Assembly (NCBI GenBank): GCA_017541885.1
Contig: JAFXYF010000014.1
Coordinates: forward strand, 1,930-65,929
DNA from: Bacilli bacterium
GTDB lineage: Bacteria > Bacillota_I > Bacilli_A > RF39 > UBA660
DNA length: 64,000 nucleotides
Direction: 5' to 3'
Shown: in pieces, positions 2,655-17,481 of the stretch
Position numbering within the stretch: the first letter of the stretch is position 1
Layout of the letters: every line of letters starts with the position of its first letter
Position numbers and translations under genes: made by a program
Notes under the pieces: generated by a model
What the model was told of the DNA's origin: nothing
Database searches by the model: none
Seen by the model: the letters and a program-made list of their open reading frames with translations, nothing else

Positions 2655-2885
2655 CTTGCAGATGCGATGAATCTGAGGAGTATTTATAACTTTTTTTGTA
2701 GAGAGTCTACGTGAGGTGAAAGTAGATAAAAAAGTATAAAGAAGGTAGCAGAAGAGCATAATTTCTGAGTTTAGTAAGAAGTTCCGGATAATTCCGTTAA
2801 AGATATCAAGCTATATATTATATATATAGAAAAAAAGGTGGTACCGCGAGATTTTCGTCCTTTGGATGAATCTCGCTTTTTTTAT
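2655..2885 (+). promoter_or_regulatory. T-box riboswitch leader with terminator/antiterminator
   Basis: Conserved T-box sequence AAGGTGGTACCGCG at about 2834-2848. It overlaps the 5' arm of the terminator GCGAGATT...AATCTCGC (2846-2876), which is followed by T8. AGAGAG and GGTGAAAGTAG stem-I-like elements are upstream, and valS is downstream. Confidence 0.85.
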
Positions 2886-13855: not shown

Positions 13856-14585
13856 AATAGATATAATTACATTTATATTTATAATTATTTATATCTTAAT
13901 AGGTGCATTTAAAGAATGTATTATAATTTATTCTTTAATAATTATTCATGAATTAGGGCATATTTTAGGTGCTTCTTTTTTTAATATAAAAGTTGACTAT
14001 ATTAAAATATATCCATTAGGCGGAATGACTAAATTTAAAATGGATATTAATACACCTTTTATAAAAGAATTAATAATACTAGTAATGGGTCCATTATTTC
14101 AAGTATTTGCATATTATTTATTAATAAATATATTTAAAGATATAGATCTAATAAAAATGTATCATCTAGGAATACTAAGTTTTAATTTGCTTCCTATTTA
14201 CCCACTAGATGGAGGTAGAATTATAAATCTATTCATAAATAAAAAATATCCTTTTTATAAATCATTAGAAATATCAATAATCATTAGTTATTTAATAATT
14301 GTTTTAATATTATTCACAAATATAAAGATAGGAATAAATATAATAATAATGGAATTATTCTTAGTACTTTTAATTCACAAAGAAGAGAAGAAAAAAGACA
14401 TATATTTTCAAAAATTTATCTTAGAAAGATATTTTAATAAATATAATTATAAAAAAAGTATAATGATTAATAGTATTAGAAAATTATATAAATATAAAAC
14501 AAATTATATAAAAATAGGTAAAATTCTATATACAGAAAAGGAATTTATAGCACTAAATTATCAAATATTTAATAAAAAATGTTGA
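13830..14585 (+). CDS. Site-2 protease, M50 family (SpoIVFB-like); start codon uncertain
   Basis: HELGH zinc motif (about 13947-13961) and the NLLPIYPLDGG motif. The frame is open from 13803. The first ATG (14025, the ORF-track start) lies downstream of HExxH, so the true start must be an upstream non-canonical codon (ATT 13830 or ATA 13839) after AAGGAG (13821-13826). Confidence 0.7.
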   Translation: MTTIKNIFKIDIITFIFIIIYILIGAFKECIIIYSLIIIHELGHILGASFFNIKVDYIKIYPLGGMTKFKMDINTPFIKELIILVMGPLFQVFAYYLLINIFKDIDLIKMYHLGILSFNLLPIYPLDGGRIINLFINKKYPFYKSLEISIIISYLIIVLILFTNIKIGINIIIMELFLVLLIHKEEKKKDIYFQKFILERYFNKYNYKKSIMINSIRKLYKYKTNYIKIGKILYTEKEFIALNYQIFNKKC

Positions 14586-14610
14586 CTTTAAAAAAATGCT
14601 TTGCTATAAT
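14582..14610 (+). promoter_or_regulatory. Consensus sigma-A promoter for tRNA-Ala
   Basis: TTGACT, 17-nt spacer, TATAAT. Confidence 0.7.
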
Positions 14611-14646
14611 CTTATTGCTGGTGTGGAAAAAACACATAAGTAATAT

Positions 14647-14722
14647 GGGGCATTAGCTCAGCTGGGAGAGCGCCACGTTTGCACCGTGGAGGTCAGCGGT
14701 TCGATCCCGCTATGCTCCACCA
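14647..14722 (+). tRNA. tRNA-Ala (anticodon UGC) with encoded CCA
   Basis: Cloverleaf folds by eye. Acceptor stem GGGGCAT/ATGCTCC contains the G3:U70 alanine identity pair. Anticodon loop TTTGCAC, T-loop GGTTCGATCC, 3' CCA. Confidence 0.95.
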
Positions 14723-14734
14723 TATAGAATTTTA

Positions 14735-14757
14735 AAAACGCTTTAAGCGTTTTTTTT
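14735..14757 (+). terminator. Intrinsic terminator after tRNA-Ala
   Basis: Hairpin AACGC...GCGTT followed by T8. Confidence 0.7.
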
Positions 14758-14833
14758 GTCAAAGAATTTGTAAATTAAAAAATTATTTAAAAAAAGTTTA
14801 GTCAAGAAATAAAAATTGTGTTATTATATTATT

Positions 14834-14941
14834 GTGGTAGACATCTTAAAGTGTAATCACAAATTCTTGGACATATGTCACGCGTTTGATCAAGAATTTA
14901 GTCTACTACGTTTTTGGAAGAGTATACTCTTCTTTTTTTTT
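14834..14941 (+). ncRNA. Candidate structured RNA or attenuating leader (unclassified) with its own intrinsic terminator
   Basis: Nested perfect helices: GTGGTAGAC (14834-14842)/GTCTACTAC (14901-14909, one G-U pair) enclose AAATTCTTG (14861-14869)/CAAGAATTT (14891-14899). The terminator GAAGAG...CTCTTC plus T9 follows (14917-14941). An extended -10-like TGTTATTAT lies just upstream. Confidence 0.4.
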
Positions 14942-15014
14942 ACTTTTTTTTAAAAAAGTGGGGGCAACTTAAAAAATACGAGAATAATATCTATGGAGGT
15001 GAGAGAAAGAAGAC

Positions 15015-17096
15015 GTGAAAGTTGTTCTGCAAGATGGTATTAAAGATTGTGGTATTTGCTGTCTCTTATCAATCATCAGGTATTATGGAGGAGAAGTACC
15101 TAAAGAGATTTTAAGAGAAATGACAAATACTACAAAAGATGGAGTATCATTATATAACTTGTTAGAAGCTTCAAATAATTTAGGATTTGAATCAATAGGT
15201 GTATCAGGTAATCTAGAAGATATAGCTCTAAATAACTTACCCTGTATAGCTCATGTTCAAGTAAAAAACAATCGTAAACATTTCATTGTAATATATGAAA
15301 TAAATAAAGAAAGTGAACAAGTAATTGTAATGGATCCTGCAAAAGGAAAAAGAAAATTATCTTTTTCTGAATTTAATTTACTATCTAGTAAATATTATTT
15401 ATTCTTAAAACCAAAAAAGAAGATTCCGATACTCAAGAAAAAAAATATAGTTTACCAAAATATAATAAAATTATTCAAAGAACACCAACAATTATTAATA
15501 GTTATTTTTCTATTAACAACAAATTATTTCATATTAAATATTATAACTTCTTTTCATTTTAAGTACCTAATAGAGTACACAATAAATAAAAATGTTTCAA
15601 ATAATCTCTTAAAACTATCAATTTCATTATTAATAATCTATTTAATGAAAAATATAATAATGACATTAAGAGATATTTTATTAAATAAATGGAGTTCTCT
15701 TTTTACACTTGAAGTAACAACATTTCTCTATCAACAAATTCTCTTGCTTCCATATCTCTATTTTAAAAATAGAACAACAGGAGAAGTAATATCTAGATTC
15801 CAAGATCTTGGAAATATTAGAGATTACTTAACAATTCTTTTTAGTACTATTACTATAGACTTAGTATCTTGTATTATCTTTTTGATATTAATGTGGAACT
15901 ATCAAAAAACAATATCTTCCCTGATTTGTATAATATTATTAGTATCTGCACTATATACAATTATTATTTCAAAAAGTAAAAAAAGAAAAATGAAAATGAT
16001 TAAACAAAAAGAAGATATTGCAAACTCTTATATAATTCAAGGAATAACTAATGTAGATACTATTAAAGGTAGTCATATTGAAAAAAGATTAATCGATAAA
16101 TTTAATTTAAACTATAAGTCTTTACAAGAAAGTATATACAACTATCTAAATTTTCATCATATTGAAAATTTTATTAAAAACAATCTACAAGATGGTATCT
16201 TTCTAATTCTTTATGGATTAGGTAGTTATTATTGTATAAGAGAGAATATGAATCTAAGCAGTTTAATTATTTATTCTTCATTTGTAAATTATTATTCAAC
16301 CAGTTTTTCAAATATTATTAATTTAATTAGTAATTATCATTCATACAATTTAACACTAGATAGAGTAGAAGAATTATTCATGTTAGATAAGGAGGAGTTT
16401 AAGCATAATTATTTCTATCTACCATATCAATTAAAAGGAGATATTTGTATCCATAATTTAAGTTACAAGATAGGAACAAAAGTAATATTAGATAATTTAA
16501 ATATAAACATAAAGCACGGAGAAAAAGTATTATTATGTGGAGATTCTGGTAGTGGTAAATCAACTCTAATGAAAATGTTAATGAGATACATTCAAATAGA
16601 TTTTGACAAAATTAAGATTGCAAACATAGATATAAATCATTATCACCTTCAAAACATAAGAAATAATATTACTTATCTATCAAGTAACGAATATCTATTT
16701 CAAGATTCAATTAAGAATAATATTTGTATGTATCAAGATTATCAAGAAGAAGATATAAAAGAAGTCTGCGATATATGTTTCGTAGATGAAATACTAAAAA
16801 GTAAAAATATAACATTAGATTCAATTATAGAAGAAAATGGATTTAACTTTAGTAATGGTGAAAGACAAAGAATTATTTTAGCTAGAAGTCTTCTTAGAAA
16901 CACTAGTATCTATATTTTAGATGAAGCTTTAGCACAAATAGATATAAATAAAGAAAAGAAAATCTTAGAAAAGTTATTTACTTATCTAAAAGATAAAACA
17001 GTTATTGTCATATCACATCGTTTTAACAATAAAAAAGTATTTGATAGAGTTTTAAAATTAGAAAAAGGAAAAATAAATGAAACAAAAAAACTATGA
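15015..17096 (+). CDS. Peptidase-C39-domain ABC exporter for double-glycine peptides (ComA/LagD/SunT type)
   Basis: N-terminal C39 motifs (QDGIKDCGICCL, KHFIVIY, VMDPAKG), a six-TM domain, Walker A GDSGSGKST, signature FSNGERQR, Walker B IYILDEA. Confidence 0.9.
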   Translation: MKVVLQDGIKDCGICCLLSIIRYYGGEVPKEILREMTNTTKDGVSLYNLLEASNNLGFESIGVSGNLEDIALNNLPCIAHVQVKNNRKHFIVIYEINKESEQVIVMDPAKGKRKLSFSEFNLLSSKYYLFLKPKKKIPILKKKNIVYQNIIKLFKEHQQLLIVIFLLTTNYFILNIITSFHFKYLIEYTINKNVSNNLLKLSISLLIIYLMKNIIMTLRDILLNKWSSLFTLEVTTFLYQQILLLPYLYFKNRTTGEVISRFQDLGNIRDYLTILFSTITIDLVSCIIFLILMWNYQKTISSLICIILLVSALYTIIISKSKKRKMKMIKQKEDIANSYIIQGITNVDTIKGSHIEKRLIDKFNLNYKSLQESIYNYLNFHHIENFIKNNLQDGIFLILYGLGSYYCIRENMNLSSLIIYSSFVNYYSTSFSNIINLISNYHSYNLTLDRVEELFMLDKEEFKHNYFYLPYQLKGDICIHNLSYKIGTKVILDNLNINIKHGEKVLLCGDSGSGKSTLMKMLMRYIQIDFDKIKIANIDINHYHLQNIRNNITYLSSNEYLFQDSIKNNICMYQDYQEEDIKEVCDICFVDEILKSKNITLDSIIEENGFNFSNGERQRIILARSLLRNTSIYILDEALAQIDINKEKKILEKLFTYLKDKTVIVISHRFNNKKVFDRVLKLEKGKINETKKL

Positions 17097-17481
17097 GAAA
17101 AAAACTCTAGTATTATTTTTGACAATATTATTATGGATCATTGAAATATGTTTTATTATCTATTTATCTAATATAAGAATAATAGAATATAAATTATTTC
17201 AAGTAATAATGATTAGTAATAAAGAAGGAGTAGTTTATTTATCTAAAGAAGATAAAAAATTATTTTATAAAAGTAGTTATTATTACTATAAAGATAAAAA
17301 ATATTACTTTGAAATTATAGATGAAAAAAAAGTAAATGATCTAATAGAAATAAAATTAAAAACATCTATCAAAAATCTAAAAGAAAATGATATTATAACA
17401 ATCTCGATAGAGAATAAAAGAATAAGTGAACTAGAAACTATTATAGATATATGGGGTGGTGATAAAAATAGTAAAGGTTGA
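17077..17481 (+). CDS. Small single-TM protein, possible minimal export accessory protein
   Basis: It overlaps the ABC gene by 20 nt. N-terminal TM LVLFLTILLWIIEICFIIYL followed by a roughly 100-aa soluble domain. Function is inferred only from position. Confidence 0.4.
   Translation: MKQKNYEKKTLVLFLTILLWIIEICFIIYLSNIRIIEYKLFQVIMISNKEGVVYLSKEDKKLFYKSSYYYYKDKKYYFEIIDEKKVNDLIEIKLKTSIKNLKENDIITISIENKRISELETIIDIWGGDKNSKG

What the first reader, a model, noticed from the sequence alone, without database searches (positions are those of the whole stretch)
14825..14941. Nested-helix structured RNA with its own terminator between tRNA-Ala and the exporter gene
Seen in sequence:
- A 9-bp helix GTGGTAGAC/GTCTACTAC (14834-14842 with 14901-14909) encloses a second perfect 9-bp helix AAATTCTTG/CAAGAATTT (14861-14869 with 14891-14899).
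- The loop of the inner helix contains the 10-bp palindrome GACATATGTC (14870-14879).
- A strong intrinsic terminator follows 7 nt later (GAAGAG-TATA-CTCTTC plus T9).
- An extended -10-like TGTTATTAT lies just upstream.
- No ORF fits the region.

Inference: this is either a roughly 110-nt stand-alone sRNA or a terminator-containing leader (a riboswitch or protein-dependent attenuator) gating the downstream exporter and peptide operon. That role would replace the missing two-component regulator. I could not match it to a riboswitch class from memory.
Basis: partly seen in the sequence, partly recalled or inferred. Interest (0 to 1): 0.65.

Follow-up and report, generated by a model that had tools for sequence, protein, structure and literature searches.

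The report
New small RNA beside peptide exporter
A real, previously uncatalogued, roughly 105-base structured non-coding RNA with its own promoter and terminator sits directly upstream of a peptide-export operon in a group of uncultured gut and rumen bacteria; it looks more like a separate small RNA gene than a riboswitch, and its function is unknown.

Summary

The element is conserved. I found 15 distinct versions, each directly upstream of an orthologous C39-peptidase ABC exporter in uncultured gut and rumen Bacilli/Erysipelotrichaceae MAGs. All 15 have:
- a sigma-A promoter with an extended -10 that ends 4-8 nt before the outer helix P1;
- a P1 whose sequence differs between species but whose pairing is kept;
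- an inner hairpin P2 with a nearly invariant top (RWCA-W2-4-RUCA-CGCRYW-UGAU-YAAR);
- an intrinsic terminator.

No Rfam family matches, and no ORF is conserved.

The riboswitch/attenuator reading is poorly supported:
- there is no antiterminator pairing, and P1 and the terminator can form together;
- the P1/P2 junction is not conserved;
- in 8 metatranscriptomes the exporter contigs begin at 15003-15009, downstream of the terminator and just after a conserved -10-like box, with no coverage of the element;
- three related loci lack the element but keep that box.

Best reading (about 0.5): a stand-alone, terminator-ended small RNA linked to the peptide-export locus, with the P2 apical hairpin as its recognition site for an unknown partner. 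Expression of the RNA itself is not demonstrated. I class it as a new member of a known kind, of moderate interest.

The parts
14799..14827 (+). Promoter of the RNA: -35 TAGTCA (14799-14804), 17-nt spacer, extended -10 TGTTATTAT (14819-14827). The predicted start is about 14833-14835.
   Evidence: Promoter scan. The same layout, TTGnnn-17-TGnTAnnnT ending 4-8 nt before P1, is present in most of the 15 homologues; the extended -10 is in all of them. The start site is inferred, not mapped.
14834..14842 (+). P1 5' arm, GTGGTAGAC.
   Evidence: Pairs with 14901-14909. P1 complementarity is significant in every homologue (p 0.0005-0.03, Fisher 1.7e-23). All P1 pairs show changes on both sides.
14851..14860 (+). 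Small optional hairpin P1a (GTG-TAAT-CAC) in the variable P1/P2 junction.
   Evidence: Present in the MFE fold. A small hairpin of unrelated sequence occupies this position in roughly half of the homologues and is absent from the rest.
14861..14873 (+). P2 5' arm, AAATTCTTGGACA. It ends in the distal copy of the RWCA motif.
   Evidence: Pairs with 14887-14899. The core-anchored pair table shows a conserved 9-bp stem with a recurrent mismatch at the fifth pair and G.U/A-U and C-G/U-A exchanges.
14874..14886 (+). Conserved apical loop TATGTCACGCGTT. It contains the proximal RUCA copy and CGCGTT.
   Evidence: TCACGC and the TGAT that follows are invariant in all 15 homologues. The proximal RUCA could alternatively pair with UGAU to give 4 bp and a hexaloop; this is an inference from the sequence.
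14887..14899 (+). P2 3' arm, TGATCAAGAATTT.
   Evidence: See the P2 5' arm. TGAT-YAA is invariant or nearly so.
14901..14909 (+). P1 3' arm, GTCTACTAC.
14916..14941 (+). Intrinsic terminator: GGAAGAG-TATA-CTCTTCT followed by a U-run.
   Evidence: Terminator scan. A stem plus U7-10 is present in all 15 homologues, and every stem pair shows changes on both sides. It does not overlap P1.
14982..14990 (+). Conserved -10-like box GAATAATAT in front of the exporter. It is a neighbouring feature, not part of the RNA.
   Evidence: rGAATAATAy lies 6-10 nt before GGAGG in most of the 18 loci compared; the three loci without the element have GAATAATAT (L054) or a TATAAT-containing variant (L006, L007) in the same place. 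No -35 is recognisable.
15003..15009 (+). Position where exporter RNA contigs begin in metatranscriptomes.
   Evidence: Contigs start at 15003-15009 in X26, X27, X28, X29, X30, X31, X34 and X35. DNA contigs from X13, X14 and X20 run straight through this point.
15015..17096 (+). C39-peptidase ABC exporter, the first gene of the linked peptide-export operon.
   Evidence: ORF. Homologues carry PF03412, PF00664 and PF00005.

Best explanation
The element is a separate gene for a roughly 105-nt non-coding small RNA. It is transcribed from its own sigma-A promoter (start predicted near 14834) and ended by its own constitutive intrinsic terminator (about 14941). The exporter operon appears to start on its own about 60 nt further downstream.

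The RNA folds so that P1 clamps its 5' end against the base of the terminator; I infer that this stabilises the RNA. P1 presents an inner hairpin, P2. The top of P2 is nearly invariant: an imperfect stem with a recurrent A.C or G.U position and a 12-14-nt loop WWW-RUCACGCGUU. I take this to be the business end, recognised by a trans-acting partner (a protein or another RNA) that I could not identify.

Because the RNA gene was never found separated from the exporter, it most likely regulates, or is co-regulated with, the double-glycine peptide export locus.

Shown: the conserved promoter, P1, P2 and terminator; the absence of a switch structure; and where exporter RNA contigs begin. Inferred: the transcript ends of the small RNA, its independence from the operon, and its partner and target.
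For: - Fifteen distinct homologues share the same architecture, and each lies directly upstream of an orthologous exporter.
- P1 differs completely in sequence between lineages, yet pairs significantly in every one.
- The structure is 83.8% paired on a covariance-model alignment, against 44-57% when the partners are slid. The covariation score is 0.52 against 0.14-0.20.
- G.U pairs and the stronger fold z-score point to the + strand as the functional strand.
- No conserved ORF is present.
- No antiterminator is present, and P1 and the terminator can form together.
- Exporter RNA contigs start at 15003-15009 in 8 RNA runs with zero depth over the element, whereas DNA contigs are continuous across the region.
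- The -10-like box is kept in loci L054, L006 and L007, which lack the element. In L007 the upstream genes are divergent, so the exporter promoter must lie in that intergenic region.
- Other genes are inserted between tRNA-Ala and the element in L002, L005, L041 and L057. Nothing is ever inserted between the element and the exporter.
Against: - Expression of the small RNA is not shown. The element has depth 0 in 8 RNA runs. The few low-depth contigs that cover it (X25, X37, X38) overrun both predicted ends, so they may be DNA or longer transcripts.
- The putative exporter promoter has no recognisable -35. The 5' ends at about 15003-15009 could therefore be processing sites of a read-through transcript.
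- No target was found. P2 does not pair consistently with the translation-initiation regions of neighbouring genes, and no complement to the loop exists elsewhere in the window.
- All 15 loci are syntenic and come from one clade. Linkage to the exporter could therefore partly reflect shared ancestry.
Confidence: 0.5

Rival explanations
1. Cis-acting leader. The exporter operon is transcribed from the strong promoter at 14799-14827, and read-through of the terminator is controlled by a factor that recognises P2. That factor could be a protein-dependent or processive antiterminator, or an unconventional ligand sensor. The leader would then be cut off and degraded, leaving 5' ends near 15003.
For: - The element has the same orientation as the exporter and stays immediately adjacent to it in 15 of 15 loci.
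- Its promoter is strong and conserved, whereas the box in front of the exporter lacks a -35.
- Contigs in X25 (an RNA run), and in X41 and X48 (runs of unrecorded type), span the terminator and continue into the exporter.
- A terminator also precedes the exporter in the loci that lack the element.
Against: - No antiterminator pairing exceeds shuffled controls.
- P1 and the terminator are adjacent and do not overlap, and both form in the MFE fold of 14 of 15 homologues.
- The P1/P2 junction, where riboswitch ligand pockets usually lie, varies in both sequence and length.
- Eight RNA runs show no coverage over the element or over 14942-15000, while the exporter reaches depth 3-29.
- Loci without the element keep the exporter and its upstream box.
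Confidence: 0.22
2. Trans-acting antisense RNA that targets rpsU (ribosomal protein S21), the conserved gene just downstream of the peptide locus. The P2 3' arm would pair with codons 8-14 of rpsU.
For: Complementarity of 14-16 bp (-21 to -24 kcal/mol) links UUUGAUCAAGAUU to rpsU AAUCUUGAUCAAGC. It is the best or near-best site in the whole locus for L002, L004 and L041.
Against: - The match rests on a shared palindrome, CTTGATCAAG, which in rpsU is fixed by the conserved peptide NLDQA.
- It weakens to background level in L005, L015, L026, L042, L053, L055 and L057. In several of these lineages P2 has changed on both arms so that its internal pairing is kept.
- It was found post hoc.
- The rpsU translation-initiation region shows no signal.
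Confidence: 0.08
3. DNA-level element. The inverted repeats would be an operator or upstream site for a transcription factor controlling one of the two promoters, rather than an RNA structure.
For: - P2 is a sequence-conserved imperfect inverted repeat, CTTAGTCA-N13-TGATCAAG.
- In the window, a related 15-mer, TGTCAAAGAATTTGT, also lies upstream of the promoter at 14757-14771.
Against: - P1 keeps its pairing with no sequence conservation, which a protein-binding site would not require.
- The recurrent G.U pairs are mismatches in duplex DNA and occur only on the + strand.
- The element is framed precisely by a promoter and a terminator in every locus.
Confidence: 0.05

Closest known systems
csRNAs (cia-dependent small RNAs) of Streptococcus
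   Same: They are stand-alone non-coding RNAs of 87-151 nt with their own promoter, a 5' stem-loop and a terminator stem-loop. They control a double-glycine-leader peptide system by repressing comC (PMC4387999).
   Different: - csRNAs have an unpaired region complementary to the Shine-Dalgarno sequence and start codon. This RNA has 0-7 unpaired nt before the terminator and no conserved anti-SD.
- It shows no consistent pairing with local translation-initiation regions.
- It shares no sequence similarity with csRNAs and has no Rfam hit.
- csRNA genes are dispersed in the genome, whereas this gene is fixed next to the exporter.
Terminator/antiterminator riboswitches and protein-dependent attenuators (T-box, RAT/LicT, PyrR and ANTAR types)
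   Same: The position is the same: a promoter, then a structured RNA, then an intrinsic terminator, upstream of an operon on the same strand.
   Different: - There is no mutually exclusive antiterminator.
- P1 and the terminator coexist.
- The junction is not conserved.
- The downstream RNA contigs do not contain the element.
- No Rfam model matches. The genuine T-box elsewhere in the window is detected readily.
Cis-acting processive antitermination RNAs (put of phage HK022, EAR of the Bacillus eps operon)
   Same: These are stem-loop RNAs transcribed just after a promoter and placed ahead of terminators. This comparison rests on my own knowledge; the families were not tested here beyond the Rfam scan.
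   Different: Those RNAs make transcription continue through terminators, so the RNA is part of the long transcript. Here RNA coverage is absent between the element and about 15003. There is also no sequence or model similarity.

Membership tests
Any Rfam 15 family | A covariance-model score at or above the family's gathering threshold. | tested here: not met
   - In the window, only tRNA and a T-box at 2658-2865 pass.
- A permissive scan of 14500-15200 gives only weak chance-level hits, none resting on the P1/P2 structure.
- Fourteen homologous loci yield only tRNAs.
Transcription-terminating riboswitch or attenuator | An alternative antiterminator pairing that competes with the terminator. 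| tested here: not met
   The best duplex between the upstream RNA and the terminator 5' arm is +1.4 to -5.8 kcal/mol, the same as shuffled arms, in all 15. P1 and the terminator both form in 14 of 15 MFE folds.
Transcription-terminating riboswitch or attenuator | Conserved nucleotides in the junctions or internal loops that form a ligand pocket. | tested here: not met
   The P1/P2 junction varies in length (about 8-45 nt) and in sequence. Conservation is confined to the top of P2.
Transcription-terminating riboswitch or attenuator | Co-transcription with the regulated gene. | tested here: inconclusive
   Eight RNA runs have exporter contigs that start at 15003-15009, with no coverage of the element. 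One low-depth RNA contig (X25) spans both. These are assembled contigs, not mapped transcript ends.
Stand-alone terminator-ended bacterial small RNA | Its own promoter and its own intrinsic terminator flanking a non-coding region. | tested here: met
   An extended -10 promoter and a terminator are conserved in 15 of 15. No ORF is conserved.
Stand-alone terminator-ended bacterial small RNA | A discrete transcript of the predicted size is detected. | tested here: inconclusive
   The element is not seen in 8 metatranscriptomes. Low-depth contigs in X37 (14801-14951) and X38 (14791-14960) cover only the element but overrun the predicted ends. Standard libraries tend to lose RNAs of about 100 nt (my own knowledge).
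Stand-alone terminator-ended bacterial small RNA | A conserved secondary structure supported by covariation. | tested here: met
   Caveat: the alignments were fitted to the structure; the slid-partner and shuffle controls are both far lower.
csRNA-like anti-SD small RNA | An unpaired region complementary to the SD and start codon of the target peptide gene. | tested here: not met
   There is no conserved single-stranded anti-SD. Mean z-scores for P2 against the translation-initiation regions of the exporter, accessory, peptide A, peptide B, immunity-like and rpsU genes lie between -0.8 and +0.45.

The most novel reading that the evidence does not exclude
The element could be a new kind of cis-acting RNA sensor or antitermination device. 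In this reading it stands in for the missing two-component system: an unknown factor or signal would bind the invariant top of P2 and let the strong upstream promoter drive the double-glycine peptide export operon through the terminator, without a conventional antiterminator helix.
Probability: 0.12. Interest if true: 0.8.

Novelty: new member of a known kind. Interest (0 to 1): 0.5.

Why it matters
- This would add a new, covariation-supported non-coding RNA family from a poorly studied clade of uncultured gut and rumen Bacilli.
- The RNA is tied physically to a conserved, chromosomally fixed double-glycine peptide export locus that has no recognisable histidine kinase or response regulator among the genes called in the loci examined.
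- If the RNA controls that locus, it would be an example of RNA-based control of bacteriocin-like or signalling peptide export.
- If it does not, it remains a clean candidate for a protein-binding small RNA with a very well defined recognition hairpin.

Tried and rejected
- Rfam at gathering and permissive thresholds, on the window and on 14 homologous loci: nothing matches.
- Antiterminator search: no signal above shuffles.
- Coding potential: only short ORFs, not conserved and in different frames and strands.
- A second copy in the window, or a degenerate copy in the element-less loci: none by pattern search or by covariance model (the best other hits have E of 0.24 or worse).
- A target complementary to the loop elsewhere in the window: none above chance.
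- Pairing of P2 with the translation-initiation regions of 10 neighbouring genes: no consistent signal.
- Kissing dimer through the palindromic ACGCGU in the loop: weakened because L053 has ACGCAU and L055 has CGCGCA.
- The window's GACATATGTC palindrome as a functional feature: not conserved.
- Viral contig scan: 0 hits.
- RNA runs for a second species (L026): uniformly low, DNA-like coverage, so uninformative.
- I compared the conserved core from memory with cre, CIRCE, CtsR, parS and DnaA-box consensus sequences. None fitted. These are recollections, not tests.

Full report
**Observation.**
- The outer helix GTGGTAGAC/GTCTACTAC (14834-14842 with 14901-14909) has 9 bp, one of them a G.U.
- The inner helix AAATTCTTG/CAAGAATTT (14861-14869 with 14891-14899) is perfect. 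It extends to 14861-14873 / 14887-14899 with one G.U and one A.A mismatch.
- The palindrome GACATATGTC is at 14870-14879.
- The terminator (stem-loop 14916-14933, T-run to 14941) is the only terminator-like site in 14000-15600, where 0.2 are expected by chance.
- A promoter-like site, TAGTCA-17-TGTTATTAT, ends at 14827.
- The + strand folds to -32.4 kcal/mol (z = -4.9, 0 of 200 shuffles as stable). The opposite strand gives z = -3.0.

**Context.**
- Upstream lies tRNA-Ala at 14647-14722 with its own terminator.
- Downstream lie a C39-peptidase ABC exporter (15015-17096), a 134-aa accessory protein, two double-glycine-leader peptides (17456-17614 and 17602-17787) and a small membrane protein. 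After these come rpsU, yqeY and yqfC/yqfD (Pfam domains of homologues).
- The window is AT-rich (27% G+C).
- Its sequence is found in rumen and gut metagenomes.
- The relatives found are MAGs labelled uncultured Erysipelotrichaceae or Bacilli, from rumen, rabbit and sheep ileum, plus a contig from a woodrat cecum metagenome.

**Known families.** Rfam 15 gives no match to the element. This holds for the window at gathering threshold, for a permissive scan of 14500-15200, and for 14 homologous loci. The real T-box at 2658-2865 is found easily, so the scan was working.

**Homologues.** The exporter has many relatives at 54-72% identity. I fetched the DNA around several of them. I also scanned the genome and metagenome collections with the conserved core pattern. 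Together these gave 15 distinct versions of the element: the window, L001, L002, L004, L005, L015, L020, L025, L026, L041, L042, L051, L053, L055 and L057.

All 15 are directly upstream of the orthologous exporter, in a syntenic neighbourhood: radC-mreC-mreD ... exporter-accessory-peptide A-peptide B-rpsU-yqeY. Every one has the following:
- an extended -10 (TGnTAnnnT) ending 4-8 nt before P1, preceded in most by a TTGnnn -35 at 17 nt;
- an outer helix P1;
- a variable junction, with a small extra hairpin in roughly half of them;
- an inner hairpin P2 with the near-invariant core RWCA-W2-4-RUCA-CGCRYW-UGAU-YAAR;
- 0-7 nt of spacer;
- an intrinsic terminator with U7-10.

RNAfold recovers this architecture in 14 of 15.

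**Structure statistics.**
- P1 has at least nine unrelated sequences, for example GTGGTAGAC, GCGAATATA, GGGATTTATTTT, GAGATGAATAG and TAGATAACTAT. Even so, the first and last 22 nt before the terminator pair better than shuffles in every case (p 0.0005-0.03; Fisher 1.7e-23). The lineages are related, so the combined value overstates independence.
- I anchored P2 on the invariant core without fitting each sequence. It is a 9-bp stem. It has a recurrent mismatch at the fifth pair (A.C in 6 sequences, A-U in 5, G-C in 1), G.U/A-U exchange at the fourth pair, and C-G to U-A exchange at the eighth.
- A covariance model (R1) scores the 15 at 51-92 bits. It finds nothing else in the 64-kb window or in the element-less loci; the best other hits have E of 0.24 or worse.
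- On the model's alignment, 83.8% of cells pair, against 44-57% when partners are slid by 1-3 columns. The covariation score is 0.52 against 0.14-0.20, and 0 of 500 shuffles reach it. A pairs-only alignment gives the same picture.
- These alignments lean towards the structure by construction. The shuffle test and the anchored table do not.
- G.U pairs recur. They would be C.A mismatches on the other strand, so the + strand RNA is the functional strand.
- No ORF is conserved.

**Is it a switch?**
- Pairing between anything upstream and the terminator's 5' arm is no better than shuffled arms in all 15.
- P1 ends 0-7 nt before the terminator stem and never overlaps it, so the two form together.
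- The junction, where riboswitch ligand pockets normally lie, is the least conserved part.
- These results argue against a classical terminator/antiterminator riboswitch, and against a RAT- or PyrR-type attenuator.

**Is it part of the exporter mRNA?**
- Only Logan contigs were available for RNA runs, so this evidence is indirect.
- In eight independent rumen or sheep metatranscriptomes (X26, X27, X28, X29, X30, X31, X34, X35) the contig covering the exporter begins at 15003-15009. Exporter depth is 3-29, and depth over 14834-14941 is zero.
- DNA assemblies (X13, X14, X20) run straight through the region, so the break is not an assembly artefact of the T and A runs.
- Six to ten nt before the GGAGG lies a box, rGAATAATAy (window 14982-14990), conserved in most of the 18 loci compared. 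The three loci that lack the element have GAATAATAT (L054) or a TATAAT-containing variant (L006, L007) in the same place.
- In L007 the upstream genes are divergent, so the exporter promoter must lie in that short intergenic region. I could find no other plausible promoter there by eye.
- No -35 is recognisable. The promoter, if real, may need an activator or an alternative sigma factor. Equally, the 5' ends could be processing sites.

**Is the small RNA itself expressed?** This is not shown. Three low-depth contigs cover the element:
- X25, 14727-15449;
- X37, 14801-14951;
- X38, 14791-14960.

All three overrun the predicted ends, so they could be DNA or longer transcripts. It is suggestive that X37 and X38 hold only the element and not the exporter, but the evidence is weak.

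**Linkage.** The element follows the exporter rather than the tRNA. In L002, L005, L041 and L057, other genes sit between tRNA-Ala and the element. Nothing is ever inserted between the element and the exporter. All true hits of the core-pattern scans were exporter-adjacent. All loci come from one syntenic clade, so this is supportive rather than decisive.

**Target search.**
- P2 shows no consistent pairing with the translation-initiation regions of ten local genes.
- No complement to the loop exists elsewhere in the window.
- A 14-16-bp complementarity links the P2 3' arm to rpsU codons 8-14, and it is the best site in the locus for L002, L004 and L041. It rests on a shared palindrome (CTTGATCAAG) and fades in half of the lineages. 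I treat it as a lead only.

**Verdict.**
- The most likely reading (about 0.5) is an independent, terminator-ended small RNA gene linked to the peptide-export locus. P1 would act as an end clamp, and the invariant top of P2 would be the recognition site for an unidentified partner.
- A cis-acting leader with factor-dependent read-through remains possible (about 0.2).
- A DNA operator is unlikely.
- The closest functional analogue I can name is the streptococcal csRNAs (PMC4387999). The element fails the defining anti-SD feature of that family and shares no sequence with it.
- It is a new member of a known kind, of moderate interest.

Noticed in passing
window 2658-2865 (+): A full-length T-box leader (133 bits, model positions 1-219). 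It is unrelated to this finding.
   Followed up: no
window 15015-17930; the same block in L001-L007, L015, L020, L025, L026, L041, L042, L053-L057: The exporter, accessory protein, two double-glycine peptides and small membrane protein form a vertically inherited block. It is fixed between mreCD/tRNA-Ala and rpsU across species whose exporters are only 54-72% identical. No histidine kinase or response regulator was recognisable among the called genes of these loci. That is unusual for a bacteriocin-like locus and suggests a housekeeping or signalling role.
   Followed up: partly
window 14982-15009: A conserved box rGAATAATAy lies 6-10 nt before GGAGG, and exporter RNA contigs begin at 15003-15009 in 8 metatranscriptomes. 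The GGAGG is 14 nt from the GTG start, which is too far for a normal SD. It may therefore sit at the very 5' end of the mRNA. No -35 is recognisable; only a loosely conserved GTG lies about 25 nt upstream of the box.
   Followed up: partly
window 18039-18060 (rpsU codons 8-14); the same site in L002, L004, L041: The rpsU segment AAUCUUGAUCAAGC is complementary over 14-16 bp to the 3' arm of P2, through a shared palindrome CTTGATCAAG. It is the strongest site in the locus for three lineages and is weak in the others.
   Followed up: partly
window 14757-14771 and 14859-14873: TGTCAAAGAATTTGT, upstream of the element's promoter, is 14/15 identical to the reverse complement of the P2 5' arm region. 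A TGTAAAT motif recurs 40-60 nt upstream of the -35 in many homologues. A Spo0A-box-like TGTCGAA abuts the -35 in L005 and L055. These may be transcription-factor sites for the RNA's promoter.
   Followed up: no
L002 3092-3793; L005 2564-3556; L041 5157-7100; L057 2208-2816: Unrelated genes are inserted between tRNA-Ala and the element in several species. The 3' flank of tRNA-Ala therefore seems to be an insertion hot spot, while the junction between the element and the exporter is never broken.
   Followed up: partly
L007 3930-3960; L006 3918-3950; L054 2900-2940: Loci that lack the element still have a hairpin plus T-run immediately upstream of the exporter's -10-like box. In L007 no upstream gene reads towards the exporter. 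An insulating terminator in front of this operon therefore seems to be conserved in its own right.
   Followed up: no
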